Positions 11,089 to 62,160 of a stretch of DNA of 64,000 nt are shown here, piece by piece; the first letter of the stretch is position 1; each line of letters opens with the position of its first letter. The position numbers and the translations under genes were made by a program. The notes under the pieces were generated by a model that had not been told where the DNA came from, searched no databases, and saw only the letters and a program-made list of their open reading frames with translations. The DNA lies in contig CBDCTH010000012.1 in assembly GCA_965222155.1 (NCBI GenBank), positions 1,248,001 to 1,312,000 on the forward strand. Reading direction: 5' to 3'. Source of the stretch: Gammaproteobacteria bacterium. Its GTDB lineage: Bacteria > Pseudomonadota > Gammaproteobacteria > Eutrophobiales > Eutrophobiaceae.

Positions 11089-11114
11089 TCCACAGATGAC
11101 ACAGATGAGAATAT

Positions 11115-11271: not shown

Positions 11272-11280
11272 AATATAATT

Positions 11281-33130: not shown

Positions 33131-33221
33131 GGAGAGGTGGCAGAGCGGTTGAATGCACCGGTCTTGAAAACCGGCAAGGGTTAGTAGCCCTTCGTGGGTT
33201 CGAATCCCACCCTCTCCGCCA
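33131..33221 (+). tRNA. tRNA-Ser(TGA)
   Basis: GGAGAGG/CCTCTCC acceptor stem, CCGGT-CTTGAAA-ACCGG anticodon arm, long variable arm, GTTCGAATC T-loop and encoded CCA. Confidence 0.97.
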
Positions 33222-41528: not shown

Positions 41529-41677
41529 ATTTGGGAACGCCTAGCTCTCCGCCATAGGCGTTCAAAATATACTGGCATAACAACAGGCCAGTCCCACCAT
41601 TTCCAATATTGTGATATAATGCACAATATACTTCACATAAACGTTAATAATGTCTATAATAGTGTTTGTTATAACTA

Positions 41678-42016: not shown

Positions 42017-42033
42017 CGACAGTAGGAACCAAC

Positions 42034-46111: not shown

Positions 46112-48805
46112 ATGACTTTCGACCACTTACATGCGCTGCCGCCCGGCACGCGCTTTGAGGAATACCGGCTGGATGTGGTGCTGGGCGCCGGGGGCTTCGG
46201 CATCACCTACCGGGCGTACGATGAAAACCTGGACAAGGTCGTGGCCATCAAGGAATACCTGCCTGATTTTGCTACCCGGACGGGGGCCAGCACGGTGGTG
46301 CCCAAATCCAGCACGGACGCTCAGGATTATCATTGGGGTTTGACCCGGTTCCTGGACGAGGCCCGCACCCTGGCGCGGTTCGACCATCCTCACATGAACA
46401 AGGTGCATCGCTTTTTCGAGGCCAACGGCACGGCCTACATGGTGCTGGAGTACATCCACGGCGAGACCCTGGCAAACCGGTTGAGCCGCGAACCGCGCTT
46501 ACCGGAGGAGACTTTGCTGCGGTTGCTGGACGAAGTCTTGTCTGGCCTGGCAGTGATACACGAAGCTAGGTACGTCCACCGTGACATCAAGCCGGGCAAC
46601 CTGATGTTGCGCGAAGAGGACGGGAGTGCGGTGCTGCTGGACTTCGGCGCGGCGCGCCAAGCCGTGGGGCAGCGTTCGCAGCGGTTGACGACGATTTTGA
46701 CACCGGGGTATGCGCCGATTGAGCAGTATGACGGCAAGGTGGACCGCGTCGGCGCGTGGACGGACATCTATGCGTTGGGGATGGTGGCGTACCGGTGTAT
46801 CAGCGGGACCGGTGATGGAGACCTGACGGATGCGGTGGCGCGTAAGCTGGCGCAACACGACGATAACGCGGGACTGGCCTCGGCTGTGGAAGCAGGAAGA
46901 GGCCGGTACAGTCCGAAGTTACTGGCGGCGATTGACTGGGCGATAGAGGTGGATGAGGAGTCTCGGCCGCAGGGGGTGAGTGAGTGGAGCGAGTCACTGG
47001 CCGGGGGGGTGAGCAAGAAACGCACAGCCAGGTCGGCACGCAAGCCCGCGACCCGGTCTGCAAAGCCCCCGACAACGGAGCGCACCGGCATGAGTTGGTC
47101 GAGCATGGCGCTGACGGTAGTGATTGTCGTGCTGCTGGGGGCGAGCGCCTGGCAGGGCTGGCGTTTGTACCAGGGGATGCCCGGGGTTGGCATGGCTGAC
47201 ACCGAAACAACGGCGGAGCCGCAGGCGGGTATTCAGACTGAACCACGAACAGGCACAGAGTCAGATATCCAGCTCGACAGTCCGGCACAGACCGCGCCAG
47301 AAACACCCGACACCAAGTTAGCGTCGGTAGACAGCACAAAGCCGGAAGCGAGCCAGCCGGTTACAGGGCCGAGCGCTTCACCGCCTCCTGAAGAAGATGA
47401 AGTCTCTCGTTTACTGGCGGCAGCCGAGGCCGACATCACGGCGCGGCGCTTGACCAGCCCTGTCGGGAACAATGCCTGGGAGAAGTATCAACGGGTATTG
47501 AGTTTATCCCCTGCCCACCCCGAAGCCATGGCGGGGATGGAGCGGGTGATGGGGAGTTACCTGGAGTTGTTCGGGGCTGCGCTGGAGCAGGAGGATTTTG
47601 ACAAGGCGGGTAGTTACCTGGGACGTATTCGTGAGTTACACCCGGACTCACCGGTGCTGGAGGAAGGTGTGCGCCGTATTGAAACGAGCAAGCAGGAGCA
47701 GGCGGACCGGTTGTCAAGGAGGCAGGCCATTCGGGCACGCCTGGACTCGTTTGAGACGGCGTTACGGCAGGATAAGCTGGACGAGGCGGCGGGTTACCTG
47801 GATCGAATACGCGCCCTGGATGCAAATGCAGCGGGGTTGGCAGAGGGGGAACAGCGTCTTGCCGAGGCCCGGCAGGCGGAGGCGGAGTTGGCGCGGCAAC
47901 GGCAGGCGGAGGCCGGCCGGCATGTAGCGCAGTTTGAGGAAGCGATGCAGGAAGGAGGCCTTGACAAGGCGGCGAGACACATCGCAGGCATTCGTAGATT
48001 ACACCCGGACTGGCCTGAACTGGGGGATGCAGAACAGCGTTTTGCCAAGGCCCGGGAGACAGAGAAGGAACGCCAGCGCAGAGAGGGCGAAGCAAGAGCG
48101 AGGGAACTGGCCGATGAAATGGTCTCGATACCCGCCGGCACGTTCCGCATGGGGGACATGAGTGGCGATGGTCAGAGTGATGAAAAACCGGTCCACCGCG
48201 TAAGGGTGTCGGCCTTCAATCTGGGCAAGTACGAGGTGACGTTTGCCCAATGGGACGCCTGCGTAGCGGACGGGGGTTGTGGCGGTTACCGGCCGGAGGA
48301 TTATGGCAGCGGCCGGGATAATCACCCGGTGATAAACGTCTCCTGGGACTATGTCCAGACGTTCATCTTCTGGTTGAATAAGAAGACCGGCGGTAATTTC
48401 CGCTTGCCGAGCGCGGCGGAGTGGGAGTATGCGGCCCGTGCCGGGAGCAAGACCAAATACTCTTGGGGGAACAGCATCGGCAGCAACCGGGCGAATTGCG
48501 ACGGTTGCGGCAGTCGATGGGATGATGACCGGACTGCGCCGGTGGGGAGTTTCTCTGCCAATGCCTGGGGGTTACATGACATGCACGGCAACGTGTGGGA
48601 GTGGACAGAGGACTGCTGGAACGACAGTTACGCGGGGGCGCCGAGTGACGGCCGCGCCTGGGAACTGGGGAACTGCGGCCGGCGTGTGCGTCGCGGCGGT
48701 TCCTGGAACGACGGGCCGTGGAACCTGCGTTCCGCCAGCCGTGACAGGTTTACCCGCTCGGACCGCCTCAACTTCATCGGCTTCCGCTTGGCCCAGGACA
48801 AGTAG
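46112..48805 (+). CDS. Receptor-like Ser/Thr kinase with TM helix, helical repeats and a C-terminal FGE-sulfatase (CLec-fold) domain; putative DGR target
   Basis: GAGGFG, VAIKE, HRDIKPGN, DFG and GYAPIEQ; TM segment ALTVVIVVLLGASAW; RLPS.AEWEYAARAG, GLHDMHGNVWEW and RGGSW...GFRLA. Confidence 0.93.
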   Translation: MTFDHLHALPPGTRFEEYRLDVVLGAGGFGITYRAYDENLDKVVAIKEYLPDFATRTGASTVVPKSSTDAQDYHWGLTRFLDEARTLARFDHPHMNKVHRFFEANGTAYMVLEYIHGETLANRLSREPRLPEETLLRLLDEVLSGLAVIHEARYVHRDIKPGNLMLREEDGSAVLLDFGAARQAVGQRSQRLTTILTPGYAPIEQYDGKVDRVGAWTDIYALGMVAYRCISGTGDGDLTDAVARKLAQHDDNAGLASAVEAGRGRYSPKLLAAIDWAIEVDEESRPQGVSEWSESLAGGVSKKRTARSARKPATRSAKPPTTERTGMSWSSMALTVVIVVLLGASAWQGWRLYQGMPGVGMADTETTAEPQAGIQTEPRTGTESDIQLDSPAQTAPETPDTKLASVDSTKPEASQPVTGPSASPPPEEDEVSRLLAAAEADITARRLTSPVGNNAWEKYQRVLSLSPAHPEAMAGMERVMGSYLELFGAALEQEDFDKAGSYLGRIRELHPDSPVLEEGVRRIETSKQEQADRLSRRQAIRARLDSFETALRQDKLDEAAGYLDRIRALDANAAGLAEGEQRLAEARQAEAELARQRQAEAGRHVAQFEEAMQEGGLDKAARHIAGIRRLHPDWPELGDAEQRFAKARETEKERQRREGEARARELADEMVSIPAGTFRMGDMSGDGQSDEKPVHRVRVSAFNLGKYEVTFAQWDACVADGGCGGYRPEDYGSGRDNHPVINVSWDYVQTFIFWLNKKTGGNFRLPSAAEWEYAARAGSKTKYSWGNSIGSNRANCDGCGSRWDDDRTAPVGSFSANAWGLHDMHGNVWEWTEDCWNDSYAGAPSDGRAWELGNCGRRVRRGGSWNDGPWNLRSASRDRFTRSDRLNFIGFRLAQDK
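48681..48774 (+). other. Putative DGR variable region VR1
   Basis: 23 differences from the paralog (55367-55460), 22 of them at codon positions 1 or 2, inside otherwise identical sequence. Confidence 0.85.
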
Positions 48806-48884
48806 ACCGAAGGCATTATGCCAACTATCTGTACGAAACTTTCTATCAGGATTCCCTTTAAACTTTTCCCTTTTTCCCTTTTCT

Positions 48885-48905
48885 GCCCGGCGCATAGCGC
48901 CGGGC
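48885..48905. other. GC-rich hairpin downstream of VR1
   Basis: GCCCGGCGC-ATA-GCGCCGGGC. Confidence 0.7.
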
Positions 48906-49741
48906 CACGATTTTTTTAGGGTTTGCCTGTTCAATCACCTCCCTGACGGAACCCCAATCACACCCCTCACGGAGAACAACCTGAGCCTCTGGTTACGTCA
49001 GCTATCATCTGTCTCCATGTATCCAACCACTCCAGACTGCATCGGTACAGTACCGGCTCCCCTGTGTATTCGCGGTGGAAGCATGACTCGAATGCATCAA
49101 TATGGTCATGCATGTCGCCCCACATTTTTTGACATGAAAAAGTTTCGAGATACTCGGGCAAGACAAGATTGTCTGTCCAGTTTTCGAAATCTGCCCGGAC
49201 ATGGGAACAAGGGTCGTCGACGGGATAAAGCTCCGGCGAATCACACGAAGCATTAAGGTCCAGGTCCGATTCGGGTAACGGCCGGTTATCGCCCCTGCCC
49301 CCTGGATTTTCATCCATCGATTCTGCGAGTTGCCTTGCACGTTCCATCCTTATCCATCTCTTCGTAATAGCTGTCTGTCGGATTCGCTGCCTGTTCCCGG
49401 GCGGCCCGGGTTTACCTGTCCAGGTAGGCATTGGCATCCTCTACGCCGCGTTCCAACTGTATCTCGCGATACTCTCGGGCCACGCTCCTGTCCGATCGCA
49501 GCAGGTCGGTCTGCGTCTTGATTTTTTCACGCTCCCTGCGTTCCTGCTCCTGATGGTGCTCTTCAATTTGCGGGGAAATAATATGTTCGTCTATCTCGGA
49601 ACACCAACCTGGTCCCGAACTCCCAGGAAGTCGTCAGCTTCCCGACCACTCCCAGAGCACGCGGCGCGGTCCTCGCTGCTGCGCTGAGCGTGCCCATTCC
49701 CAGCCTGCCCAAAACCTTGCCGATTTGCTTGAGTCCTGTAT

Positions 49742-51055
49742 TCACGACGCTGTCCTCGATTTCCCCTGCAACATAGTCTTGGGATATATCGACCAGCGTA
49801 TCCCGGCAGACCACGCGGTTTGCGGACAGGTTCTCACCGGTGCAGTCTGCAGCGCGGGACATGGCGTCCATGGCGGTCTCCACCCCTTTCGGGTCGACCG
49901 TGTCTCAATCGGCGTGGCGCTGGTCATCCACGCGGGCGCGACCGGCGTCGCGGCATCTGCGGCGCTAAGCCGTTCCCCAGGCACGATCCGGAGTTCGCTG
50001 ATACGGTACGCGGAATCAACCGTGCGCTCCCAGTAAGTCAGCAAGGCGACGTCCAGCAGCGGGTTGTAGTAGAGCGCCGCGGGCGTGGGCGTGTCCGCGG
50101 CGCGTGTTTCGATGACGGCATTCTCAAAAAACGGCCCCCAGGTTTGTTTGAGCACGCTGTTGCGCTGCGCTTCCGTCGCATCCGGCGGCACCAGCCAGCT
50201 TACGCCCGGTATCAGTCCCAGTACCCGCATAGACATATCGTCGCGGTCTACGACCGAGCGGCGTAACGCCGCCGCCTGTCCGGGGAACCCCGGCGTCTCG
50301 GCAGGTTCAGCCTGCGGAACGGCCGCAACGGGAGGGGCTTCGGCCGGCGGGCCGGTAGCTGTCTCCGGCTCTGCCGCTACTGCTTGCGTCACTGTAACCG
50401 GCAGGGCAGCCTGTTCCTGCTCTGTCGGTGGCGTTTCCGGCGGCGCCGTGACCAGGTCGTAGGTCTCGATCAGGCCCAGCCGTCCCCGGACCGCGACAAA
50501 CGAACCCGTATGGGGCAGTTTGAACATGGTGACCGGCTGTTTTGCGCCGGACCCCTTGTCAGTCCAGATCAGGGAACTGGTGACGACTTTTTCCGTGAGG
50601 CTCGCCGGCACACAACGGTAATCTGGCAGGGACGGTTTTTCATATCCTGCCTGGGGAACGCTGCCCAGGCAGCGGTATTGATCGCCGGGCGGGACGGCCC
50701 GCCACATCGAACCGTCCTGCCGCGCCCCGCTGCCCTTGTCCTTCCATATCAATTCCCAGTCTACCGGTACGGCCAGTTGCGCCGAGTCCTTTACTGTCAG
50801 CACACAGTCGACACCGGTTAGTTCCTTTAGGCGGGACCCATAGCCGCCGATAATGAAATACGTCGGCTCTGCAACCGGGAGGTAAAAATAGCCGTCCAGG
50901 TCCGCGCCCGAGCCCTTGTCATCCCAGGTCTTTTCCATGGAGCACGCCGGCCTGGTATCAAGCCGGGCGCCTGTTGCCGTGGGATTGTCAACCTGGGCAA
51001 GAACGCCTGCGGAGATGAACCAGGCAAGGAACAGGAAGCAGGTAGGGCGCATCAT
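49742..51055 (-). CDS. Secreted Vps62/DUF946-like repeat protein, probably rearranged or frameshifted at its 3' end
   Basis: Signal peptide; three W.DKGSGA repeats; Pro/Ala-rich linker; coding frame appears to switch near 49890. Confidence 0.6.
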   Translation of the reverse strand: MMRPTCFLFLAWFISAGVLAQVDNPTATGARLDTRPACSMEKTWDDKGSGADLDGYFYLPVAEPTYFIIGGYGSRLKELTGVDCVLTVKDSAQLAVPVDWELIWKDKGSGARQDGSMWRAVPPGDQYRCLGSVPQAGYEKPSLPDYRCVPASLTEKVVTSSLIWTDKGSGAKQPVTMFKLPHTGSFVAVRGRLGLIETYDLVTAPPETPPTEQEQAALPVTVTQAVAAEPETATGPPAEAPPVAAVPQAEPAETPGFPGQAAALRRSVVDRDDMSMRVLGLIPGVSWLVPPDATEAQRNSVLKQTWGPFFENAVIETRAADTPTPAALYYNPLLDVALLTYWERTVDSAYRISELRIVPGERLSAADAATPVAPAWMTSATPIETRSTRKGWRPPWTPCPALQTAPVRTCPQTAWSAGIRWSIYPKTMLQGKSRTAS

Positions 51056-51205
51056 CAGTGTTTGTTCAGTTTCCTTAAAGTCCGGTTAGTCCTGCTCATT
51101 CCGGGAATGGGATAGATACACCGGATTGTAGTCAGGTGGCGCTGATGTTGCAAGCTTTGAGGATATCCTGTATGTGGCAAACAACTACTTCGGTCCGAAG
51201 GAAAG

Positions 51206-52839
51206 CAGCTATTCCCGCTAACGCCTGGGTCGTCACGAAATCCCGATAAATACGGGGTTTTTGAGAAGGCTGAAAAAAGGTTTTCGTAAACGTTTGGCAT
51301 TGCTTCAGTATAGTAGGGAGTATTATTCAAGTCAAAAGTGAGGTGAGAAGCCATGTCTCGACCTTCGTTTCGCAAAACTTTGAGTCTCCCCGGTCTGTTA
51401 GCTGAGGTACGTCGTTGTTTTCAAGCCATCCCGGACGGCAAGGTGGGTCGGGGCTTGACCCTGACGGAGTATCTGCTGTCGGGGTTGGCGGTATTCGGTT
51501 TGAAGTACCCGTCATTATTGCAGTTTGATGCAGGCCGTCAGAACGAGGTGGTGCGTTCGAACCTGCGCACGTTATACGGGATTGTGCGGGTCCCCTCGGA
51601 CACGGCGTTGCGTGAGCGGCTGGATGAGGTGGACCCGTCCCGGTTACGGCGGGCGTTCCGGCGGGTGTTACAGGTGTTGCAGTGTGGCAAGGGTCTGGAG
51701 GACTTTCAGTGGTGGGCCGGTCATTACCTGTTATCGGTGGACGGGACGGGCTATTTTTATTCGGACCAGGTGCATTGCGAGCAGTGCTGTGAGACACACC
51801 ACCGGGACGGTCGGGTGAGTTATTATCATCAGTTGTTGGGGGCGGTACTGGTACATCCTGACCAACGTGCGGTGTTGCCGTTAGCACCGGAGCCCCTCTT
51901 ACGTGCGGACGGGGTGGCTAAGAATGACTGTGAGCGCACTGCGGCGTAGCGCTTGCTGACGGACGTGCGGCGCGAGCATCCCCACCTGAAACTGGTTGTA
52001 GTGGAAGATGCGTTGGCGGCCAACGGGCCGCATATCAAGTTATTACAGTCGTTGAAGCTACGTTATATCCTGGGGGTGAAGCCCGGCGACCATGCGTTTC
52101 TGTTTGATTGGGTGGCTACCACGCCGGGGGTGCAGAGCGCGGCGTTGACCGGGGAAGACGGCACCGTGCACCGGTTTCGTTACCTTAACGGTGCGCCGTT
52201 GAACGAGAGTCACTTTGACCTTCAGGTGAACTTCCTGGCGTATGAAGAGCAGCGTCCCTCAGGCAAGGTACGGCATTTTACCTGGGTGACGGATATACCG
52301 TTACACGAGGCCAACCTGCTGCGGGTGATGCGCGGGGCGCGGGCGCGTTGGAAGATTGAGAATGAGACATTCAATACCCTGAAGCACCAAGGCTATCACT
52401 TTGAGCATAACCTCAAGCATGGCTATCAGCACCTGTCCACGGTGCTGGCGTACCTGATGATGCTGGCGTTTCTGGTAGACCAAGTGCAGCAGCACTGCTG
52501 CGGACTGTTTCAACAGGCGTCGGCGAAGGAGAAATATAAACGCTACTTCTGGGAGACGCTGCGCAGCTTCTTCTTCACCTGGCTGCTGCCGGACTGGGAG
52601 ACGTTGTATCGGGCGCTGGCCTATGGCGCTGCCCCGCGCGTGCTGACCCCCTATGATACCTCTTAAGGGTGAGCCGTGACCGGGTAGCTCAAGGCGAGGG
52701 ACTTCAGGGGATACCAAGCTGAATACAGAACACCGGGGACAGCCGGAGGGCCGCCCATCCCCTGCTGGTCGGGTCATTGTGAAAAAAATGAATCTGGCCC
52801 GATAATGCTGCCGATCGCAGGAGTTAGCGGGAACACCTG
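51206..52839 (+). mobile_element. Insertion sequence (DDE transposase, IS4-like/ISNCY type)
   Basis: TIRs CAGCTATTCCCGCTAACGCCTG / CAGGAGTTAGCGGGAACACCTG; flanks GAAGGAAAG / GAAGGAAAT. Confidence 0.85.
51353..52666 (+). pseudogene. DDE transposase with one internal stop
   Basis: SVDGTG, KNDCE, VEDAL and RARWKIENETFNTLK; TAG at 51947 splits two in-frame ORFs. Confidence 0.88.
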
Positions 52840-52856
52840 GAAGGAAATCTTCCGTA

Positions 52857-52886
52857 TTGACACGGTTTCCGGGACTACCTTACAAT
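52857..52886 (+). promoter_or_regulatory. Sigma70 promoter of kinase 2
   Basis: TTGACA-N18-TACAAT. Confidence 0.78.
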
Positions 52887-52926
52887 CCTTAAACGCCTCA
52901 GCACTATAAATTGAGATCACAAACCC

Positions 52927-55491
52927 ATGACCATCGATCACATCCATGCCCTGCCGCCCGGCACCCGCTTTGAGGAATACCGGCTGGATGTGGTGCTGGG
53001 GGCCGGAGGCTTCGGGATTACCTACCGGGCGTACGATGCCCACCTGGACGTGCATGTCGCTATCAAGGAGTACCTGCCCGGGGAGTTTGCAACGCGGTCG
53101 GAGGGCAGCACAGTGGTACCCAAATCCAGCACGGACGTCCAGGATTATCAATGGGGCTTGAGCCGCTTCCTGGACGAGGCCCGTACCCTGGCGCGCTTTG
53201 ACCATCCGCACCTGAACAAGGTGCGCCGCTTTTTCGAGGCCAACGGTACGGCCTACATGGTGCTGGAGTACATTCACGGCGAGACCCTGGCTGCCCGACT
53301 GGGCCGCGATGCGCGCTTGCCGGAAGCGGCGTTGCTGCGCCTGCTGGAAGAAATCCTGTCGGGCCTGGCGGTGATACACAAGGCGGGCTACGTGCACCGG
53401 GACATCAAGCCGGGCAACCTGATGTTGCGGGAAGAGGACGGGAGCGCGGTGCTGCTGGACTTCGGCGCCGCCCGCCAGGCGGTGGGCCAGCGATCCAAGT
53501 CGATCACAAGCATCCTGACCCCGGGCTATGCCCCGATAGAGCAGTATGACAGCAAGGCGGACGACGTGGGGCCGTGGAGCGATATCTATGCGTTGGGCAT
53601 GGTGGCCTACAAGTGTATCAGCGGGACGGGTGACGGGGCGTTGCCGGATGCGGTGACGCGAGGCCGGGCACAGCGCAAGGGCGGGGTGGACCTGGCCTCG
53701 GCGGCGGTAGCGGGCAAGGGCCGGTACAGTCCGAAGTTATTGGAAGCGATAGACTGGGCGATTGAGGTGGATGAGGAGGCCCGTCCGCAAGGGGTAGCTG
53801 AGTGGTTGGAAGCATTGGCGGGGGGTAGTAGCAAGCATCGTAAAACCGGCACCGGGCACAAGCCCGCGACCCGGCCTGCAAAGGCCCCGGCGACCGAGCG
53901 CACCGGCATGAGTTGGTCGAGCATGGCGCTGACGGCGGTGATTGTCGTGCTGCTGGGGGCGAGCGCCTGGCAGGGCTGGCGGCTATACCGGGGTATGCCG
54001 GTGGTTACCCCGGATGAAACGACCACCATGGCGGAGTCACAGGATGAATCACAGACAGACAGGGAATCAGACCCACAAACAACAGGGACACCGGTGGACA
54101 CAGGGTCGGACAGTCCGGCGGAGACTGCACCAGTTATGTCCGAAACTGAGCCAGTAGCGTCGGCGGACAGCGCAGCAGCGCAGCAACCGGCGGCGGACCC
54201 GGCCAAGGATGCGCCTGCTGAAGAAGACGAGGTAACCCGGTTGCTGGCGGGGGCTGATGCGGACATCACGGCGTGGCGCTTGACCAGCCCTGTCGGAAAC
54301 AACGCCTGGGAGAAGTATCAACGGGTACTGAGTTTATCGCCGACGCACCCGGCGGCCATGGCGGGGATGGAGCGGGTTATAGGGAGTTATATGGCGTTAT
54401 TCGGGGCGGCGCTGGAGCAGGAGGACTTTGACCAGGCTGACAGTTACCTTGAGCGTATCCGCGCCCTGCACCCGGACTCCCCTGCTCTGTTGACGGGGAA
54501 AAAGCAGTTGGAAGTGGCCAAACAGGCGCGTGCCGAGCGTCTGGCTGAGCAGGAGAGGCAACGTCAGGCGGAGGAAGCGGCGCGCCAGGCGGAACTGGAG
54601 CAGCAACGCATTGCCCGTGCCATTGAGGGACATTGGGAAGCGTTTGAGACTGCAATGCAGCGGGATGGGTGGGATGAGGCGGCGGGTAACCTCAATCAGG
54701 TACGCGACCTGAATCCCGATGAGCCGGGTCTGGCAACAGGGGAGCGGCGTCTGGCAGCGGCGCGGGAGGCCGCCCGGCAGAAGGCGCTGCAATATGTCGG
54801 TGAAATGGTCTCGATACCCGCCGGCACGTTCCGCATGGGGGACATGAGTGGCGATGGTCAGAGTGATGAAAAACCGGTCCACCGCGTAAGGGTGTCGGCC
54901 TTCAATCTGGGCAAGTACGAGGTGACGTTTGCCCAATGGGACGCCTGCGTAGCGGACGGGGGTTGTGGCGGTTACCGGCCGGAGGATTATGGCAGCGGCC
55001 GGGATAATCACCCGGTGATAAACGTCTCCTGGGACTATGTCCAGACGTTCATCTTCTGGTTGAATAAGAAGACCGGCGGTAATTTCCGCTTGCCGAGCGC
55101 GGCGGAGTGGGAGTATGCGGCCCGTGCCGGGAGCAAGACCAAATACTCTTGGGGGAACAGCATCGGCAGCAACCGGGCGAATTGCGACGGTTGCGGCAGT
55201 CGATGGGATGATGACCGGACTGCGCCGGTGGGGAGTTTCTCTGCCAATGCCTGGGGGTTACATGACATGCACGGCAACGTGTGGGAGTGGACAGAGGACT
55301 GCTGGAACGACAGTTACGCGGGGGCGCCGAGTGACGGCCGCGCCTGGGAACTGGGGAACTGCGGCCAGCGTGTGATTCGCGGCGGTTCCTTGTTCCACGG
55401 ACCGGGGGGCCTGCGTTCCGCCTCCCGTGGCTGGAATACCCGCTCGTACCGCGGCTCCTACATCGGCTTCCGCTTGGCCCAGGACAAGTAG
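52927..55491 (+). CDS. Receptor-like Ser/Thr kinase with a C-terminal FGE-sulfatase (CLec-fold) domain, paralog 2; putative DGR target
   Basis: Same architecture and intact catalytic motifs as the 46112 gene. Confidence 0.93.
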   Translation: MTIDHIHALPPGTRFEEYRLDVVLGAGGFGITYRAYDAHLDVHVAIKEYLPGEFATRSEGSTVVPKSSTDVQDYQWGLSRFLDEARTLARFDHPHLNKVRRFFEANGTAYMVLEYIHGETLAARLGRDARLPEAALLRLLEEILSGLAVIHKAGYVHRDIKPGNLMLREEDGSAVLLDFGAARQAVGQRSKSITSILTPGYAPIEQYDSKADDVGPWSDIYALGMVAYKCISGTGDGALPDAVTRGRAQRKGGVDLASAAVAGKGRYSPKLLEAIDWAIEVDEEARPQGVAEWLEALAGGSSKHRKTGTGHKPATRPAKAPATERTGMSWSSMALTAVIVVLLGASAWQGWRLYRGMPVVTPDETTTMAESQDESQTDRESDPQTTGTPVDTGSDSPAETAPVMSETEPVASADSAAAQQPAADPAKDAPAEEDEVTRLLAGADADITAWRLTSPVGNNAWEKYQRVLSLSPTHPAAMAGMERVIGSYMALFGAALEQEDFDQADSYLERIRALHPDSPALLTGKKQLEVAKQARAERLAEQERQRQAEEAARQAELEQQRIARAIEGHWEAFETAMQRDGWDEAAGNLNQVRDLNPDEPGLATGERRLAAAREAARQKALQYVGEMVSIPAGTFRMGDMSGDGQSDEKPVHRVRVSAFNLGKYEVTFAQWDACVADGGCGGYRPEDYGSGRDNHPVINVSWDYVQTFIFWLNKKTGGNFRLPSAAEWEYAARAGSKTKYSWGNSIGSNRANCDGCGSRWDDDRTAPVGSFSANAWGLHDMHGNVWEWTEDCWNDSYAGAPSDGRAWELGNCGQRVIRGGSLFHGPGGLRSASRGWNTRSYRGSYIGFRLAQDK
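55367..55460 (+). other. Putative DGR variable region VR2
   Basis: Aligned with VR1; encodes QRVIRGGSLFHGPGGLRSASRGWNTRSYRGSY. Confidence 0.85.
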
Positions 55492-55570
55492 ACCGAAGGC
55501 ATTATGCCAACTATCTGTACGAAACTTTCTATCAGGATTCCCTTTAAACTTTTCACTTTTTCCCTTTTCT

Positions 55571-55591
55571 GCCCGGCGCACAGCGCCGGGC
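55571..55591. other. GC-rich hairpin downstream of VR2
   Basis: GCCCGGCGC-ACA-GCGCCGGGC. Confidence 0.7.
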
Positions 55592-55794: not shown

Positions 55795-56256
55795 TTGATC
55801 CCGTTACAAAGCGTCAGTCTGACATTCTCATGCGAACGCCAACCGTCCATGTCCAGGATTCGTTGTTATATCGTCGGGCGTGACCCCTCCGCATCCATCG
55901 TCCTGCAGCATGAGACGGTGTCGCGCAGGCATGCAGAACTGATTCCCGTGTCCGGCGGGCAGGTATACGTGACGGACTGCGCCAGCACCTGCGGGACTTT
56001 TATCGATAAAGGCGGCCGTTGGGAGAAAGTCAGCCAGGATTTCGTCAGCGCCGGAGGCAGGGTACGCTTCGGCGACGTAGAGGTTAGCGTGCAGAGTTTG
56101 CTGGCCGATATTGCCCGCCTGCCTGCCGGCGATGGAGCGGCTCCCGGCGGTTCGGCAGATCCCGGGGGTTCCCCAGGTGTTGATAAGAAGAAACAGGTGG
56201 ATGCCAGCCACGGGGTCGTGCGCGACCCCGACACGGGGGAGCCGATCGCCATGTGA
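55795..56256 (+). CDS. FHA-domain protein (start probably 55849)
   Basis: VGR, VSRRHAEL and D..S..GTF. Confidence 0.88.
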   Translation: MIPLQSVSLTFSCERQPSMSRIRCYIVGRDPSASIVLQHETVSRRHAELIPVSGGQVYVTDCASTCGTFIDKGGRWEKVSQDFVSAGGRVRFGDVEVSVQSLLADIARLPAGDGAAPGGSADPGGSPGVDKKKQVDASHGVVRDPDTGEPIAM

Positions 56257-56271: not shown

Positions 56272-57075
56272 ATGAACCAGAGAATGACGATATTCACAGG
56301 CGCACTGGGCGCAGGCGTAGTCTTCATCGGCGTGCTCAGCCTGTTCCTGTCTGAAGGCTTTTTCGCCGATTTCCTGCTGGACAGGAATTCAAAGTTCATG
56401 CCGTATCCGGTCACCATACAGAATATCATGTGGCTGGTATTCTTCATCGGGGCAGGAGAACTGTTGTTGCGCTACCTGCAAACAGACCGGGAAATAAGTC
56501 AGATCCGCCTGGGACTCCTGCCGGAGGACAGCACGACCTTGTTGCGCAAGCAGGACCTTGGCGGCGTATATCAGCGCGTCAAGGAGACCATGTATCCGGC
56601 ACCGGGCGAGGTAGGCACGTTCGGGCGCAGCAAGGGTGCGGCTGATGATTCCTATTTCCTGCAACGCCTGTTGTCCCGTTGTATCCTCCAGTTCCAGGTC
56701 AGCGGAGCCATCGACAAGGCGAACAACATGTTCAACTCCAGCCTGGAACTGTTCCAGCACGAGGTCGAACTGAGATACAACGCCATACGCTATATCGTCT
56801 GGCTGATCCCAACCCTGGGTTTTATCGGCACCGTCGTCGGCATCGCGCTGGCGCTCAGTGACGCAGGCAGCGTCGAGAACTACCAGGACCCCACTCTGCT
56901 TAAACAGCTCACGCAGAGTCTCGGCGTCGCCTTTTTTACCACCCTGCTGGCACTGTTGCAGTCCGCTGTGCTGATGTTCGCGCTGCATGTCGTCCAGGGT
57001 CAGGAGGAAGCATCGCTGAACAGGATTGGACAGTATTGCCTGGATAACCTGATTAACCGGTTGTATGAGACCTGA
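56272..57075 (+). CDS. MotA/TolQ/ExbB proton-channel family protein
   Basis: IPTLGFIGTVVGI and LGVAFFTTLLAL transmembrane motifs. Confidence 0.9.
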   Translation: MNQRMTIFTGALGAGVVFIGVLSLFLSEGFFADFLLDRNSKFMPYPVTIQNIMWLVFFIGAGELLLRYLQTDREISQIRLGLLPEDSTTLLRKQDLGGVYQRVKETMYPAPGEVGTFGRSKGAADDSYFLQRLLSRCILQFQVSGAIDKANNMFNSSLELFQHEVELRYNAIRYIVWLIPTLGFIGTVVGIALALSDAGSVENYQDPTLLKQLTQSLGVAFFTTLLALLQSAVLMFALHVVQGQEEASLNRIGQYCLDNLINRLYET

Positions 57076-57181: not shown

Positions 57182-57844
57182 ATGCCGGTAAAACGCGACG
57201 CGGACGGGAATATCATCGAGGAAAAGACAAGAATCGCCGGGGGGTTCGATCAGGTTTCACCGACGTTAGCGGGGCAATCACCCGTTGGCGCCACGGTCGG
57301 TCCCGGCAAAAACCCCCAGTCCGATCCTGGCCGGCAATCGGGTTATGAGGCCCAGACGGTCCTGGCAGGCTCAACCCGCGCCGCCGGTGGGGAAGCCAAG
57401 ACCAGGATATACCGGCCCGGCAGGACGGAGCGGGGGCAGCCGGGGACGACGTTGTCAAGTACGGATACTGAGGATTCGCCGTCCGCTGCCATGGACGACC
57501 CGCCGGTAGGGTGGCTGGTTGTCATCAAGGGGCCGGGACAGGGGAATTTCATGGCCGTCGGCAACGGTTCGAATTCGGTCGGACGCGATGAGGGCGAGCG
57601 CGTCCGTGTAGATTTTGGCGACGAGATGATCTCCCGTAGCGGCCATTCGGCGATTACCTACGACCCCAGGGGCAAGAAGTTTTACCTGCAACACGGCGCT
57701 GGAAAAAATCTGACTTACCTGGAGGGCAATCCGGTCCTGTCGCCGACGGAACTGTCCAGATTCTCCCGGATCACCATAGGGAACACCGAATTACTGTTCG
57801 TCCCGCTCTGCTGCGAACAGTTCGACTGGGATGAATATACGTAA
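57182..57844 (+). CDS. FHA-domain protein with a Thr-containing disordered N-terminus
   Basis: VGWLVVIKGPGQG, VGR, D..ISR..H..I.YDP and NLTYL. Confidence 0.88.
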   Translation: MPVKRDADGNIIEEKTRIAGGFDQVSPTLAGQSPVGATVGPGKNPQSDPGRQSGYEAQTVLAGSTRAAGGEAKTRIYRPGRTERGQPGTTLSSTDTEDSPSAAMDDPPVGWLVVIKGPGQGNFMAVGNGSNSVGRDEGERVRVDFGDEMISRSGHSAITYDPRGKKFYLQHGAGKNLTYLEGNPVLSPTELSRFSRITIGNTELLFVPLCCEQFDWDEYT

Positions 57845-57853: not shown

Positions 57854-58837
57854 ATGAATGCCGTCAAGCAGTGGGTGGCAGGGGAGCAAATCCAGGGGGA
57901 CCGAAATTACCAGGAAGACGATTTCTCGATTCGCCTTCTGTTTCAAGACCGGGACTCTCTGGATGAGGACCAGCTGCTGCTCGTGCTGGCCGACGGCATG
58001 GGCGGCCATGCCGGCGGCGCCGTTGCCAGCAAGACGGTAGTCCAGGCTTTCCAGGAGGGCTTCTACCGGAATGCGTCCGGCATCGCAGAACGCTTCAATG
58101 CCGGCATTGAAACCGCCAACAACGCCGTTAAGGAAAAGCAACTAGCCGACCTGAACCTGTCCGAAATGGGCTGCACCCTGGTCGCCGCATTGGTTGTCGG
58201 GTCGAGTCTTTACTGGACCAGTGTCGGCGACTCCATACTGTGGCTGTTCAGGCAGAACCGCCTGCAGCGGCTGAATGCGGATCATTCCATGAAGCCCCTG
58301 CTACTGGACCTGGTTGAGTTGGGTAGGATGACCGAAGAAGAGGCCTTGAGCGATTCCAGGATCAACCAGTTGCGCTCGGCCATCTTTGGCGAGGAGGTCC
58401 CGTTAATCGACATGAACGCGGACGGTTTCCAGTTGGAAGCCGGCGATCTGATTTTGCTGGCCACTGATGGCCTTGAAACCCTGTCGGAGGAAGGAATGGC
58501 GGATGTCATCAAGGCAGGCGCAAACGATGCCGATGAGATAGTGAACGCCCTGCTTGACGCCGTCGCCATGGCGGGCGTGCGCGGACAGGACAACACCACG
58601 GCGCTGGTGTACCGGGTTGGTGAGGGGAATGATTCACTGCACGGCGCGCTGGCTGGTATAAGCGCAACTGGCCAGGGAGCCGGTTTCGAGCAACAGATTA
58701 AACCCTCCCGGACATGCGAGATTCGTCCTGAACAGGATGGAGAAGCTCCGGAAAAGCGACCGGGGATTTTCGCCAGAATTATGCACGCCTTTTCGGGTAA
58801 GCCTGCGCAGGAAAACACACGGGGAAAAACGCAATGA
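57854..58837 (+). CDS. PP2C-family Ser/Thr phosphatase
   Basis: R.YQED, ADGMGGH, MGCT, VGDS, DHS, ATDGL and QDNTT. Confidence 0.95.
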   Translation: MNAVKQWVAGEQIQGDRNYQEDDFSIRLLFQDRDSLDEDQLLLVLADGMGGHAGGAVASKTVVQAFQEGFYRNASGIAERFNAGIETANNAVKEKQLADLNLSEMGCTLVAALVVGSSLYWTSVGDSILWLFRQNRLQRLNADHSMKPLLLDLVELGRMTEEEALSDSRINQLRSAIFGEEVPLIDMNADGFQLEAGDLILLATDGLETLSEEGMADVIKAGANDADEIVNALLDAVAMAGVRGQDNTTALVYRVGEGNDSLHGALAGISATGQGAGFEQQIKPSRTCEIRPEQDGEAPEKRPGIFARIMHAFSGKPAQENTRGKTQ

Positions 58838-60921: not shown

Positions 60922-62160
60922 ATGAACCGTCCCTTGTTACACTGGGTGATAATTCTAGGCCTCTGCGGCCTAAACAACGGAGCCCGCGCCGATTTTGTTG
61001 GCCGATCAGGGAGCGCAATGCCGCACTTCATTGACGGGTGGGCTCATATAGCGGCAACCCCGGGCCGGAACTTGCCAGGGGTTGACTGGATGGATTATAT
61101 CCCGGCCATCGTTGATATATTGCCCGATGTAGTCGATCTTTTCGATCGACCTCCCAAGGACAAGGAAGAACAGTATAGAGAGGAGCAGGAAGCGCAACAG
61201 GAACAGGATGCGGCGCAACAGGAACAGGATGCGGCGCAACGGGAACGCCAGCGGGCACAGCAGGCCGAGCAGGAAGCGCAACGGCAGCGGGAAGCGGCGC
61301 AACGGGAACGCCAGCGGGCACAGCGGGCTGAGCAGGAAGCGCAACGGCAGCGGGAAGCGGTGCATCAGTCGAGGGAAATGGCGGAAGAAGCCAGGGGCGC
61401 GGCAGAGGAAGCGAAAGGAACTGCCCGGGAGGCGAAAGGAATCGCACAAGATGCAAAAGGCGTGGCCCAGGAAGCCAGAGGTGCGGCGCAAGAGGCTAAG
61501 GGAATTTCGCAGGAGGCGAAAGGTGAGGCGCAGGCGGCAAAGGGTACGGCGGAAGAAGCCAGGGGCGTGGCGCACGAGGCGAAAGGCACGGCGGAGCAGG
61601 CACGAGGCACTGCGGTTGAAGCCCAGAGACAGGTTGAGGTAGCGCACGTACGCGTGGGCCAGCAAAACACGTTTGTGGCTCTGCTGGCCCTGTTGACCCT
61701 GCTGGCCCTGATCCTGGCCCTGAGAAAGCCCAGGCAGGCCATCGTCCGGGCTGCCGGGCACGCGATGGAACCATTGAGTCGGCGCTTCAAGCCAGCAGCA
61801 CACAAGCTGGCTCCCGGCGCAGGTCACGCCGGAACTGCAAACGTTGTACTCACGGGATTTAACAACAAAGGCAGGCCGGTCAATGTTCCGCTGCCGGAGT
61901 CGGAACTGGACCCGAAACTGGGCGGTTTCACCCTGGGACGCCATCACCTGCTGGTTGATAAGGTGCTGGACGATGATCGGGTATCGAAGCGACATGCCAG
62001 GTTCTCCCATAACGGGTGCGGTTATTTTGTCGAAGATCTCAATTCAAGGAACGGTACCGTCATTAACGGCACCCAGCCGTGCGCGCCCTTCAAACCGATA
62101 CAAATCAGATCCGGCGATACGGTGCGACTCGGTGGCATGGAGTTGATCGTGTCCGCCTGA
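60922..62160 (+). CDS. Membrane protein: signal peptide, repetitive coiled coil, TM helix, FHA
   Basis: A.EAKG heptad repeats; TM segment FVALLALLTLLALILAL; LGR, VSKRHA and DLNSRNGT. Confidence 0.82.
   Translation: MNRPLLHWVIILGLCGLNNGARADFVGRSGSAMPHFIDGWAHIAATPGRNLPGVDWMDYIPAIVDILPDVVDLFDRPPKDKEEQYREEQEAQQEQDAAQQEQDAAQRERQRAQQAEQEAQRQREAAQRERQRAQRAEQEAQRQREAVHQSREMAEEARGAAEEAKGTAREAKGIAQDAKGVAQEARGAAQEAKGISQEAKGEAQAAKGTAEEARGVAHEAKGTAEQARGTAVEAQRQVEVAHVRVGQQNTFVALLALLTLLALILALRKPRQAIVRAAGHAMEPLSRRFKPAAHKLAPGAGHAGTANVVLTGFNNKGRPVNVPLPESELDPKLGGFTLGRHHLLVDKVLDDDRVSKRHARFSHNGCGYFVEDLNSRNGTVINGTQPCAPFKPIQIRSGDTVRLGGMELIVSA

What the first reader, a model, noticed from the sequence alone, without database searches (positions are those of the whole stretch)
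46112..55591. Receptor Ser/Thr kinases with DGR-type hypervariable ligand-binding tips
Seen: two paralogs are identical over 48115-48680 / 54801-55366 and again after the variable block. They differ at 23 sites in 94 bp (48681-48774 vs 55367-55460), across 16 codons. 22 of the 23 are at codon positions 1 or 2, 11 codons are NNC/NNT, 15 sites have A in one copy, and 14 codons change the amino acid; one pair is AGC/TCC, both Ser. Scaffold residues RGGS, LRSA.R and IGFR are untouched. Known: DGRs randomise template adenines, typically in AAC codons, within C-terminal CLec/FGE-fold domains, and remote or kinase-linked targets are reported in cyanobacteria. Inference: catalytically intact transmembrane kinases with diversified extracytoplasmic sensors, forming an adaptable receptor repertoire in a proteobacterium, mutated in trans. 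Predicted template, approximately: GTG AAT CGC GGC GGT TCC TNG AAC AAC NNA CCG AGG AAC CTG CGT TCC GCC AAC CGT AAC AGG AAT ACC CGC TCG AAC CGC AAC AAC AAC ATC GGC TTC CGC. Caveats: the TGG/TTG site fits less neatly, and no template or DGR RT is visible in this window.
Basis: partly seen in the sequence, partly recalled or inferred. Interest (0 to 1): 0.93.

Follow-up and report, generated by a model that had tools for sequence, protein, structure and literature searches.

The report
DGR-diversified receptor Ser/Thr kinases
Three paralogous membrane Ser/Thr kinase genes have their outer sensor tips rewritten by a diversity-generating retroelement lying just past the window's end, a real but already described kind of bacterial hypermutation system.

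Summary
The two paralogs differ at 23 sites in 94 bp inside otherwise identical blocks. The missing DGR lies about 2.6 kb past the window end. It runs: a third kinase-FGE target, bAvd, a reverse transcriptase, then a 119-nt template repeat (TR) overlapping the RT stop codon. A metagenomic allele of kinase B differs at 17 of 854 residues, 14 of them in the VR. Contigs of other runs carry non-reference letters at TR-A sites of VR3, while the TR is unchanged.

The targets are single-pass kinases with intact catalytic motifs and a predicted periplasmic, non-catalytic FGE/C-type-lectin domain. They sit in a high-GC island beside FHA, PP2C and trypsin-FHA genes. Kinase-CLec DGR targets are already in print, so this is a new member of a known kind. 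The ligand and the biological role are inferred only.

The parts
46112..48805 (+). Kinase A: 897-aa Ser/Thr kinase, one TM helix, helical-repeat linker and C-terminal FGE/CLec domain
   Evidence: Pfam Pkinase 7e-32 (aa 19-233) and FGE-sulfatase 3e-59 (aa 667-894). GAGGFG, VAIK, HRDIKPGN, DFG and APIE motifs are present; hydropathy peak at aa ~326-350; 9 K/R before the helix and 1 after it.
48678..48796 (+). VR_A, 119-nt variable region; remote target 17.8 kb upstream of the TR
   Evidence: 17 mismatches to the TR, 16 of them at TR adenines and 1 at a T. Fisher p = 8e-11.
48885..48905 (+). GC-rich hairpin followed by a T-run (terminator-like) after kinase A
   Evidence: Exact 21-nt palindromic stem. 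The same element follows kinase C, where the terminator scan lists it, and follows kinase B with 1 mismatch.
48115..48868 (+). Duplicated cassette, copy A: FGE domain, VR, stop codon and 3' flank. Identical to copy B except inside the VR
   Evidence: 0 differences over 48115-48680 and 48775-48868; identity collapses to the left of 48114 and beyond about 48920.
52927..55491 (+). Kinase B: 854-aa paralog with the same architecture
   Evidence: Pfam Pkinase 1e-31 and FGE-sulfatase 6e-60; same motifs and TM helix. The metagenomic allele P0005 differs at 17 of 854 residues, 14 of them within VR residues 813-852.
55364..55482 (+). VR_B, 119-nt variable region; remote target 11.1 kb upstream of the TR
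   Evidence: 20 mismatches to the TR, 19 at adenines and 1 at a G (the TGG to TTG site). Fisher p = 2e-13.
54801..55554 (+). Duplicated cassette, copy B
55571..55591 (+). Terminator-like hairpin after kinase B
   Evidence: 1 mismatch to the copy after kinase A.
55795..56256 (+). FHA-domain protein (153 aa)
   Evidence: Pfam FHA 1e-13. Homologue in the same position of the G073 operon.
56272..57075 (+). MotA/ExbB-family membrane protein
   Evidence: Pfam MotA_ExbB 1e-10; 62% identical homologue in the G073 operon; weak ZorA hit 7e-6.
57182..57844 (+). FHA-domain protein (220 aa)
   Evidence: Pfam FHA 6e-6; 53% identical homologue in G073.
57854..58837 (+). PP2C-type Ser/Thr phosphatase
   Evidence: Pfam PP2C_2 8e-15; 44% identical homologue in G073. 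PP2C also lies directly after kinase-FGE genes in L056 and L057.
58834..60921 (+). Trypsin-like peptidase fused to an FHA domain (695 aa); candidate effector
   Evidence: Pfam Trypsin_2 6e-9 and FHA 7e-15. Two trypsin-FHA genes occupy the same place in G073.
60922..62160 (+). FHA-domain protein (412 aa)
   Evidence: Pfam FHA 9e-16 (L001:922-2160 equals window 60922-62160).
62174..62998 (+). 274-aa protein of unknown family, probably coiled-coil
   Evidence: Only sub-threshold Pfam hits. Its first 51 residues are 80% identical to the G073 counterpart, which carries a VWA_2 domain just below Pfam's gathering cut-off (26.7 bits against 27).
63094..64000 (+). 5' part of kinase C, the cis target. 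The ORF runs off the window to L001:4977 (L001 = C12:1308001-1324000, so L001 position = window position - 60000). The rest of the system lies BEYOND THE WINDOW END and cannot be listed as parts: VR3 at L001:4910-5029; bAvd at L001:5168-5521; RT at L001:5525-6607; TR at L001:6596-6714; conserved structured element 3' of the TR at L001:6715-6850
   Evidence: Kinase C: Pfam Pkinase 5e-34 and FGE-sulfatase 2e-53, with the FGE profile cut at 223/255. The ORF ends inside VR3 because of a 1-nt insertion.

VR3: 18 substitutions relative to the TR, all at adenines, plus 1 inserted base. Contigs of runs X1-X3 lack one base there.

bAvd: Pfam 63 bits against a cut-off of 40; NCBIfam DivGenRetAVD 92.5 bits against 80.

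RT: RVT_1 6e-23; IGNLTSQ and YVDD present, no stops; the only such RT in the genome.

TR: 119 nt with 30 A, overlapping the RT stop codon; unchanged in the run X1 contigs.

3' element: a 10-bp hairpin; 13 of 36 predicted pairs are compensatory across 5 related DGRs.

Best explanation
This is a chromosomal diversity-generating retroelement with three targets.

Shown: a bAvd gene, a reverse transcriptase gene and a 119-nt template repeat (TR) lie just beyond the window end. Three paralogous genes upstream on the same strand end in 119-120-nt variable regions (VRs). These VRs differ from the TR almost only where the TR has adenine. All but one of the 30 TR adenines occupy codon position 1 or 2, mostly in AAC codons.

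Inferred from the established DGR mechanism: the TR is transcribed, and RT/Avd copies it into cDNA with random misincorporation opposite adenines. The cDNA then replaces the VR of the adjacent gene (kinase C) and, in trans, those of kinases A and B, 11 and 18 kb away.

Each target is a Hanks-type Ser/Thr kinase with intact catalytic motifs, one transmembrane helix and a C-terminal FGE-fold C-type-lectin domain lacking the FGE cysteines. The charge bias places the kinase in the cytoplasm and the variable domain in the periplasm.

Inferred function: the cell holds a small, re-writable repertoire of periplasmic ligand sensors. Ligand binding changes kinase activity, and phospho-threonine marks are read by the neighbouring FHA proteins, including a trypsin-FHA protease. 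The PP2C phosphatase resets the system. I put roughly even odds on the ligands being phage or competitor surface molecules (a conflict or defence sensor) rather than other environmental cues.
For: TR, Avd and RT were found by BLAST of the VRs against the whole genome and by Pfam and NCBIfam. Avd scores above NCBIfam's curated cut-off (92.5 against 80). The RT is uninterrupted and carries IGNLTSQ and YVDD.

Adenine specificity is 16 of 17, 19 of 20 and 18 of 18 substitutions. The TR has 30 A in 119 nt. Fisher p = 8e-11 and 2e-13. 29 of the 30 TR adenines are at codon position 1 or 2, and 18 codons are variable, giving about 1e17 peptides.

Diversification came after the duplication: A and B share 566 + 94 identical flanking bases yet differ at 23 VR sites, 21 of them at TR adenines.

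Variation in nature: P0005 matches kinase B at 837 of 854 residues. 14 of the 17 differences lie in the 40-residue VR, 13 of them on A-containing TR codons. In run contigs the unique flanks and the TR show 0 differences. VR3 positions 16942-16955 of L019, all TR-A sites, show 2-3 alleles per run, including letters absent from all three reference VRs.

Family-wide pattern: among 70 of 120 Pkinase+FGE homologues with the same spacing, columns matching the 18 A-codons average 2.89 bits of entropy against 0.45 for the rest.

The related RTs examined (52-58% and 80% identity) keep the order target-Avd-RT-TR, with A-specific mismatches of 17 of 18, 12 of 12, 23 of 23 and 13 of 14.

Kinase motifs, TM helix and charge bias. 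FGE cysteines absent: alignment.

Signalling module: FHA x4, PP2C, trypsin-FHA and MotA-like genes. They are conserved in the same order in another genus, where the kinase carries a PEGA ectodomain and no DGR was found nearby.
Against: No experiment or raw-read data show retrohoming in this strain.

The read evidence comes from assembled contigs laid at 85% likeness. Contigs from one VR can therefore land on another, and only 40 of 619 differences were displayed, none of them in VR_A or VR_B.

Two substitutions are not at adenines (T to G in VR_A, G to T in VR_B). This means either some drift since the last homing event or RT errors.

No convincing hairpin or cruciform follows the VRs (fold z-scores -0.26 and +1.08), so the target-recognition element is undefined.

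The cis target is frameshifted in the reference assembly.

The topology rests on hydropathy and charge only. Kinase activity, FHA coupling and the ligand are untested. PADLOC assigns no known defence system; the kinase-domain hits to PD-T4-6 and mad6 are generic. The DGR-free orthologous operon lies next to a LuxR-type response regulator, which fits ordinary envelope signalling as well as it fits defence.
Confidence: 0.88

Rival explanations
1. The DGR is genuine but no longer active. The VR differences would then be fossils of past homing, and the kinases would now evolve as ordinary paralogs.
For: Two non-adenine substitutions occur in VR_A and VR_B. The cis target has a frameshift in the reference. 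A decayed VR fragment with 6 of 27 non-A mismatches lies 870 kb away. In the same genus, one relative (G019) has only a partial RT beside five FGE genes.
Against: RT and Avd are full-length with catalytic motifs. All 30 TR adenines are available for mutagenesis, and VR-TR identity outside the adenines is 87 of 89 or better. An allele of kinase B from another assembly has 14 of its 17 differences in the VR. Run contigs show several alleles at TR-A sites of VR3, and in runs X1 and X3 every contig laid there lacks the extra base (most of the depth in X2).
Confidence: 0.08
2. The DGR diversifies these kinases for 'regulatory pathway tuning'. They would sense abiotic or self-derived envelope signals, or mediate kin recognition, rather than detect phages or competitors.
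For: This role was proposed for cyanobacterial STK-CLec variable proteins (PMC7517822, passages read). The same operon without a DGR exists in another genus, with a PEGA-domain kinase next to a LuxR-type response regulator. No PADLOC system was recognised.
Against: The closest RTs diversify nSTAND1-FGE proteins with TIR or DUF4062 N-termini, an architecture read as a conflict system (for the published reading). The island is flanked by AbiE, Abi_2/abiF RNA and HipA modules. A protease-FHA effector suits an abortive response. None of this is decisive.
Confidence: 0.35
3. There is no retroelement involvement. The two copies diverged by point mutation under diversifying selection after a partial gene conversion.
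For: Gene conversion or a recent duplication of the FGE-VR-terminator cassette did occur, given the identical blocks.
Against: 21 of the 23 differences sit on adenines of a non-coding repeat beside an Avd-RT pair. There are 0 differences in 660 flanking bases. The same pattern appears in a third copy and in related genomes.
Confidence: 0.01

Closest known systems
Cyanobacterial Ser/Thr-kinase-CLec DGR variable proteins and their remote paralogs (Vallota-Eastman et al. 2020, PMC7517822; passages read)
   Same: N-terminal Hanks-type kinase grafted to a C-terminal CLec/FGE domain. The VR lies at the 3' end, and one DGR serves several paralogs, including targets outside the cassette.
   Different: The host here is gammaproteobacterium-like by RpoB. 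All three proteins have a predicted single TM helix with the variable domain outside, whereas that paper predicts most cyanobacterial variable proteins to be cytosolic. Here the genes sit in an FHA/PP2C/trypsin-FHA operon.
Thiohalocapsa PB-PSB1 and other 'clade 5' DGRs diversifying putative antigen sensors (Dore et al., bioRxiv 10.1101/2023.09.22.558884 / PNAS 2024 PMC10907252; passages of the preprint read)
   Same: A proteobacterial chromosomal DGR with several FGE-type CLec targets in multi-gene signalling or conflict loci. A Pkinase domain is among the target domains named in that paper's figure legend. The closest RTs to ours diversify nSTAND1-FGE proteins with TIR, like its clade 5D.
   Different: The targets here are kinases, not STAND NTPases. 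The genome has one DGR, not nine. I could not place the RT in that paper's tree, because no reference set was available and supplements were closed.
Category b12 (kinase + FGE-sulfatase) of the DGR target survey (Wu et al. 2018, PMC5758913; passages read), and 'Pkn1/PknD' targets in MAGs (PMC11661182; passages read)
   Same: A CLec1-type VR in an FGE-sulfatase domain with an appended kinase domain. Non-adjacent targets lie within tens of kb.
   Different: Those surveys list the architecture without the FHA/PP2C/protease context or the membrane topology.
Treponema denticola TvpA (PDB 2y3c) and the Bordetella phage BPP-1 Mtd/Avd/TR/Brt prototype
   Same: FGE-type CLec fold with the VR at the C-terminus. 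TvpA matches the FGE domain at E = 3e-12. Adenine mutagenesis and the Avd accessory protein are shared.
   Different: The gene order here is target-avd-RT-TR, with the TR overlapping the RT stop codon. The BPP-1 order (avd-TR-brt) is recalled, not tested. No BPP-1-like hairpin was found after the VRs.
PvdO (PDB 5hha), a non-catalytic FGE-fold protein
   Same: It is the best solved-structure match to the variable domain (E = 8e-42 over residues 8-236 of 237).
   Different: PvdO is a stand-alone protein. Nothing here suggests it is a DGR target or fused to a kinase.

Membership tests
Diversity-generating retroelement | Reverse transcriptase of the DGR type (RVT_1 with the IGxxxSQ motif and YxDD) | tested here: met
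   RVT_1 6e-23. IGNLTSQ and YVDD are present and there are no stops. That IGxxxSQ marks DGR RTs is recalled, not computed. NCBIfam has no DGR-RT model; the best hit is group II RT at 137 bits, below its cut-off of 300.
Diversity-generating retroelement | TR/VR near-repeat whose mismatches fall on TR adenines | tested here: met
   16 of 17, 19 of 20 and 18 of 18 substitutions are at adenines; Fisher p = 8e-11 and 2e-13.
Diversity-generating retroelement | Accessory variability determinant (Avd) | tested here: met
   NCBIfam DivGenRetAVD 92.5 bits, above the cut-off of 80. Pfam bAvd 63 bits, above the cut-off of 40.
Diversity-generating retroelement | VR at the 3' end of a target ORF within a CLec/FGE fold, with variable adenines at codon positions 1 and 2 | tested here: met
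   The VRs end 9 nt before the stop codon. FGE-sulfatase scores 3e-59 and 6e-60. 29 of 30 TR adenines are at position 1 or 2.
Diversity-generating retroelement | IMH and hairpin/cruciform target-recognition element at the 3' end of the VR | tested here: inconclusive
   TR-VR homology ends at the same base in all VRs, followed by a VR-specific GACAAGTAG stretch shared by all four VR copies. That stretch is also coding sequence. Only a 4-bp hairpin is predicted; z = -0.26 and +1.08.
Diversity-generating retroelement | VR varies in populations while the TR stays constant | tested here: met
   P0005 against kinase B: 14 of 17 differences lie in the VR. Run contigs show multi-allelic TR-A sites in VR3 and 0 differences across RT and TR (caveats are cross-mapping and a truncated table). 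This is not a direct demonstration of retrohoming.
Hanks-type (eukaryote-like) receptor Ser/Thr kinase | Pkinase domain with glycine loop, VAIK lysine, HRD catalytic loop, DFG and APE-like motif | tested here: met
   Pkinase at 7e-32, 1e-31 and 5e-34. The glycine loop, VAIK, HRD and DFG motifs were found by search in A, B and C; the APE-like motif was found that way in A and B, and C has APVE in the alignment.
Hanks-type (eukaryote-like) receptor Ser/Thr kinase | Single transmembrane helix, kinase inside and sensor outside | tested here: inconclusive
   There is one hydropathy peak (KD19 1.73-2.12) at aa ~326-350, with 7-9 K/R in the 30 residues before it and 1 after it. No dedicated topology predictor or experiment was available.
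Hanks-type (eukaryote-like) receptor Ser/Thr kinase | Phosphotransfer activity | not testable with these tools
   It needs an autophosphorylation or substrate assay.
Formylglycine-generating enzyme (catalytic FGE) | Active-site cysteine pair in the C-terminal loop | tested here: not met
   In the alignment to a solved FGE, one enzyme cysteine falls in an insertion the query lacks and the other aligns to W in the VR. The protein has the FGE fold but is not an FGE enzyme.
Published 'conflict systems' with DGR-diversified CLec sensors (Kaur et al. 2020; Dore et al. 2024) | CLec sensor joined to an NTPase or kinase regulator, with adaptor and effector genes such as a peptidase in the same locus | tested here: inconclusive
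   Kinase + FGE sensor, FHA adaptors, PP2C and trypsin-FHA are all present. No effector-associated domain or described ternary/STAND core was found. PADLOC returned only generic kinase hits.

The most novel reading that the evidence does not exclude
A hypervariable, DGR-written FGE/CLec ectodomain has been grafted onto the receptor kinase of a pre-existing, conserved phospho-signalling operon: FHA, MotA-like, FHA, PP2C, trypsin-FHA, FHA, kinase. The DGR-free counterpart of this operon in another genus carries a PEGA ectodomain. The receptor was then triplicated. This would give the cell a small, anticipatory repertoire of periplasmic antigen receptors. On binding a phage or competitor molecule, a receptor would trigger a phospho-threonine/FHA-gated protease response. 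That would be a transmembrane, kinase-based counterpart of the cytosolic STAND-type DGR sensors. The 70 metagenomic homologues with the same hypervariable columns suggest it is a large, unstudied receptor class.
Probability: 0.3. Interest if true: 0.7.

Novelty: new member of a known kind. Interest (0 to 1): 0.4.

Why it matters
The locus is a clean, complete, multi-target DGR on a chromosome. The output domain is a recognisable signalling enzyme, and the likely downstream readers (FHA proteins, a PP2C phosphatase and an FHA-linked protease) are encoded next to it. This makes a long-standing question testable: what DGR-diversified proteins of cellular, non-phage hosts sense, and what happens once they bind. 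Phosphorylation gives a readout. Three paralogs give internal comparisons. An orthologous operon without a DGR gives a natural control. The element itself adds no new principle, since kinase-CLec targets, remote targets and adenine mutagenesis are all in print.

Tried and rejected
Hairpin or cruciform after the VRs: the 74 nt downstream of VR_A and VR3 fold no better than shuffled sequence (z = -0.26 and +1.08). I make no claim about a recognition structure.

Known RNA family for the TR region: an Rfam E-value search of L001:4500-8500 gave only abiF RNA and a sub-threshold hit.

Known defence system: PADLOC on 10 island proteins gave generic kinase hits (PD-T4-6, mad6) and weak ZorA-, ZorB- and JetC-like hits. 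No system was assigned.

Other possible targets: the FGE gene at C12:1018332-1018450 has 44 mismatches to the TR, 20 of them not at adenines, so it was rejected as a current target. The fragment at C12:443888-444006 (27 mismatches, 6 not at A) is a truncated relic. The 68-nt hit at C12:3351937 was not followed.

Read laying: only 40 of 619 differences and 12 of 18 indels were printed. No rows fall in VR_A or VR_B, so nothing can be said about them from that call. Long contigs stop on either side of each FGE-VR cassette, as expected for a repeat. X4 is too shallow to use. At 85% likeness, paralog contigs can cross-map. The word shares (0.82 down to 0.29) were not used as evidence.

Class-wide protein search: 190 of 400 genomes matched, but only 2 candidates per genome were scored and most matches cover the kinase or the FGE part alone. 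I did not use it to count fused proteins. One genome (G276) was not scored. The unpublished genomes G336, G169 and G067 are counted in that tally only.

L005 (a Nitrospira locus) gave no TR/VR pair because the contig starts at the RT.

Not run: structure prediction, fold search, complex prediction and the protein atlas. The fold is already clear from Pfam and PDB sequence matches, and I make no binding claim. RT phylogenetic placement in published clades was not possible without reference sets. Paper supplements, which may list this or a near-identical locus, were closed.

Literature: the three-term search for DGR, kinase and FHA returned 3 papers. In the one whose passages I read on this point (PMC7159879), a DGR-diversified kinase is not linked to an FHA/PP2C operon. 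The other two (10.1101/2022.05.30.493841 and PMC8195603) I saw only as search listings and did not open. This is a statement about those searches only.

Full report
**Observation**

The window is G000:C12:1248001-1312000. Two ORFs, 46112-48805 (897 aa) and 52927-55491 (854 aa), each carry an N-terminal Pkinase domain and a C-terminal FGE-sulfatase domain.

At an ungapped offset of 6686, the copies are identical over 48115-48680. They differ at 23 sites between 48681 and 48774, and are identical again to 48868.

**Finding the retroelement**

BLAST of the two VR regions against the whole 4.55-Mb genome gave two further strong hits just past the window end:
- a third copy at C12:1312810-1313047;
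- a 119-nt match at C12:1314596-1314714.

The second match is non-coding apart from overlapping the last codons of an upstream ORF. It has A at almost every site where the copies vary.

The genes around it are as follows:
- a third kinase-FGE gene at window 63094 to L001:4977;
- a 117-aa bAvd (Pfam 4e-17; NCBIfam DivGenRetAVD 92.5 bits against a cut-off of 80);
- a 360-aa RT (RVT_1 6e-23, IGNLTSQ and YVDD present, no stops);
- the TR, whose positions 10-12 form the RT stop codon.

No second Avd or DGR-type RT exists in the genome. The only other RT hits are four copies at 24.5% identity. The copy inside the window is a group II intron.

**Adenine specificity**

| VR | Substitutions vs TR | At TR adenines | Other |
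|---|---|---|---|
| VR_A (48678-48796) | 17 | 16 | 1 at T |
| VR_B (55364-55482) | 20 | 19 | 1 at G |
| VR3 | 18 | 18 | plus one inserted base |

With 30 A in 119 nt, Fisher's exact p is 8e-11 for VR_A and 2e-13 for VR_B. Of the 30 adenines, 16 are at codon position 1, 13 at position 2 and 1 at position 3. The 18 A-containing codons, eleven of them AAC or AAT, allow about 1e17 peptides. Of the 23 A-versus-B differences, 21 are at TR adenines.

**Evidence that the element has been active recently**

- Kinases A and B share 660 identical flanking bases but different VRs, so diversification followed the duplication or gene conversion.
- A protein from an unnamed ENA assembly (P0005) is 98% identical to kinase B. 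Of its 17 differences, 14 lie in the 40-residue VR, 13 of them on A-containing TR codons. The 14th restores the TR-encoded Trp at the TGG/TTG site.
- Contigs of four public runs were laid on a 19.8-kb stretch. Unique flanks match perfectly (for example 2,549 nt with 0 differences), and so do RT and TR (L019:17111-19800 in run X1). VR3 positions 16942, 16945, 16946, 16947, 16951 and 16955 are all TR-A sites. They show two or three alleles within single runs, including letters found in none of the three reference VRs.
- In X1 and X3, every contig laid at VR3 lacks one base there: 105.4 + 32.4 of 137.7 depth in X1, and 14.6 of 14.6 in X3. In X2 the figure is 77.3 + 57.3 of 182.1. The frameshift that truncates kinase C in the reference is therefore either an assembly artefact at a heterogeneous site or a minority allele.

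Two caveats apply to this read evidence. These are assembled contigs laid at 85% likeness, so cross-mapping between VRs is possible. Only 40 of 619 differences were printed.

**The targets**

All three proteins have GAGGFG, VAIK, HRDIKPGN and DFG, and an APE-like motif: APIE in A and B, APVE in C. Each has one hydrophobic helix near residue 326-350, with 7-9 Lys/Arg in the 30 residues before it and 1 after it. A and B have a Pro/Glu/Thr-rich stretch and helical repeats before the FGE domain.

The FGE domain's best solved relative is PvdO (8e-42). Catalytic FGEs follow (about 1e-23), and TvpA scores 3e-12. Aligned to an FGE, the enzyme's cysteine pair is absent and falls inside the VR. These are therefore receptor-type Ser/Thr kinases with a predicted periplasmic, non-catalytic, hypervariable lectin-fold tip. 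The orientation is inferred.

**Family context**

A search with kinase A returned 7,294 proteins at E <= 1e-20 among 8,000 scored candidates. The best 120 all carry Pkinase plus FGE-sulfatase, and several lie on the same contig.

In the 70 of 120 with the same spacing across the VR segment, columns matching the 18 A-codons have a mean entropy of 2.89 bits, against 0.45 for the other 21 (Mann-Whitney p = 3e-7). The regular expression used for selection fixes columns 2, 5-8, 34-37 and 39. The unconstrained non-A columns are still at or below 1.5 bits. Many members of this family therefore look DGR-diversified in the same register.

**Relatives of the RT**

The nearest RTs in one-genome-per-species contigs are from Nitrospira MAGs (55-58% identity) and a Pseudomonadales MAG (52%). 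They keep the order target-Avd-RT-TR, with A-only mismatches of 17 of 18, 12 of 12 and 23 of 23. Their targets, however, are nSTAND1-FGE proteins with TIR or DUF4062 N-termini, or FGE alone.

Within the window's own genus, 2 of 22 other species genomes have this RT: one complete at 80% identity and one partial. In the complete one, 13 of 14 TR-VR mismatches are at A. In both loci only the FGE part of kinase A found a match.

The island (C12:1292000-1315000) has GC 0.597 against 0.529 for the genome and 0.52/0.48 for its flanks. The cassette thus looks horizontally mobile, with the FGE-VR module attached to different signalling domains in different hosts.

**Signalling context**

Between kinases B and C lie, in order, an FHA protein, a MotA/ExbB-like protein, a second FHA protein, a PP2C phosphatase, a trypsin-FHA protein, a third FHA protein and a 274-aa protein of unknown family.

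Another genus of the same class (G073) has the same genes in the same order, at 39-62% identity. They are followed by a kinase 59% identical in its catalytic domain but carrying a PEGA domain instead of FGE. No RT or Avd was found within the 19.9 kb read. Two other genomes have kinase-FGE genes directly followed by PP2C.

This supports, but does not prove, a model in which the kinases feed a phospho-threonine/FHA network with a protease output and a PP2C reset. In that model the DGR-written ectodomain is an exchangeable sensor module.

**The TR 3' element**

The 136 nt after the TR contain a 10-bp hairpin. In an alignment of five related DGRs, 13 of 36 predicted pairs show compensatory changes, and an invariant GGTGTCCATG block follows the hairpin. 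By analogy with the spacer RNA needed for priming in the Bordetella phage DGR (PMC6182149, abstract seen), this may be the priming scaffold. With five sequences the evidence is only suggestive.

**Comparison with what is known**

- Kinase plus FGE-sulfatase is category b12 in the 2018 survey, which also documents non-adjacent targets.
- Ser/Thr kinases are the commonest domain in cyanobacterial DGR variable proteins and their remote paralogs.
- 'Pkn1/PknD' are among the frequent annotated targets in MAGs.
- A Pkinase domain appears among the targets of a gammaproteobacterium in the work proposing DGR targets as antigen sensors.

The element is therefore a new member of a known kind. Less well covered in the papers I could search is the combination seen here: a membrane-receptor topology, three paralogs, and an FHA/PP2C/trypsin-FHA operon that has a DGR-free ortholog. 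Supplements were closed and may hold more.

**Verdict**

The mechanism is well supported at the DNA level, with about 0.9 confidence that this is a functional or recently functional multi-target DGR. The biological role is open: I give roughly even odds to a conflict sensor and to a regulatory sensor. Interest is 0.4.

Noticed in passing
L001:4910-5029 (just beyond the window end): The cis target's VR has one extra base in the reference, which truncates kinase C at 627 aa. Contigs of three other runs lack one base there, so this may be a consensus artefact at a heterogeneous site or a DGR-made null allele.
   Followed up: partly
L001:6715-6850: The 136 nt downstream of the TR form a conserved structured element. 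It has a 10-bp hairpin with compensatory changes across five DGRs (13 of 36 pairs) and an invariant GGTGTCCATG block. No Rfam family matches it.
   Followed up: partly
L058 (G073:C218:48001-67900), 2077-11951: A syntenic operon in another genus: FHA, MotA-like, FHA, PP2C, two trypsin-FHA genes, a protein with a VWA_2 match just below Pfam's gathering cut-off (26.7 bits against 27), then a Ser/Thr kinase with a PEGA domain instead of FGE. No RT or Avd was found nearby, and a LuxR-type response regulator lies downstream.
   Followed up: partly
window 34057-35868 (+): A group II intron (Rfam D1-D4 at 107.9 bits and domain V/VI at 59 bits) with an RT ORF. tblastn finds four copies in the genome: C12:32706, 1282706 and 2850047, and C1:17552.
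   Followed up: partly
window 33131-33218 (+): A tRNA gene lies just upstream of a run of mobile and toxin-antitoxin genes, with the high-GC DGR island beyond them. It is a possible integration site for a composite genomic island.
   Followed up: no
window 40076-43365: DUF6088/AbiEi-like (40076-40612) with AbiEii (40446-41528), and HipA (42034-43365). These are toxin-antitoxin or abortive-infection modules upstream of the island.
   Followed up: no
L001:7230-7823 (-) and L001:8784-9404 (-): An Abi_2 gene preceded by an abiF RNA motif (RF03085, 40.2 bits against a gathering score of 37), and a DUF6088/AbiEi gene. Both lie directly downstream of the TR.
   Followed up: no
window 49742-51055 (-): A 437-aa protein with a Vps62 domain (7e-12) lies between kinases A and B on the opposite strand. 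A 60-residue match to it lies near a related kinase in G040 (L061). Its function is unknown.
   Followed up: no
G000:C12:443888-444006: A relic VR, 870 kb away. Only the last ~55 codons of an FGE domain remain, with the same 3' flank. It has 27 mismatches to the TR, 21 at A and 6 not.
   Followed up: partly
L024 (G019:C6:111001-130900): A same-genus relative has five tandem FGE-domain genes beside a partial RT and a partial Avd. This looks like a decaying multi-target DGR.
   Followed up: no
TR position 13 (ATT codon), L001:6608: The same non-adenine T-to-G change next to an adenine occurs in VR_A of this genome and in the VR of the related DGR in G022. It may be a recurrent RT error or an older TR state.
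   Followed up: no
window 56272-57075 and 62174-62998: The MotA/ExbB-like protein and the 274-aa protein give weak hits to ZorA (7e-6) and ZorB (9e-5). These are too weak to call a Zorya-like module.
   Followed up: no
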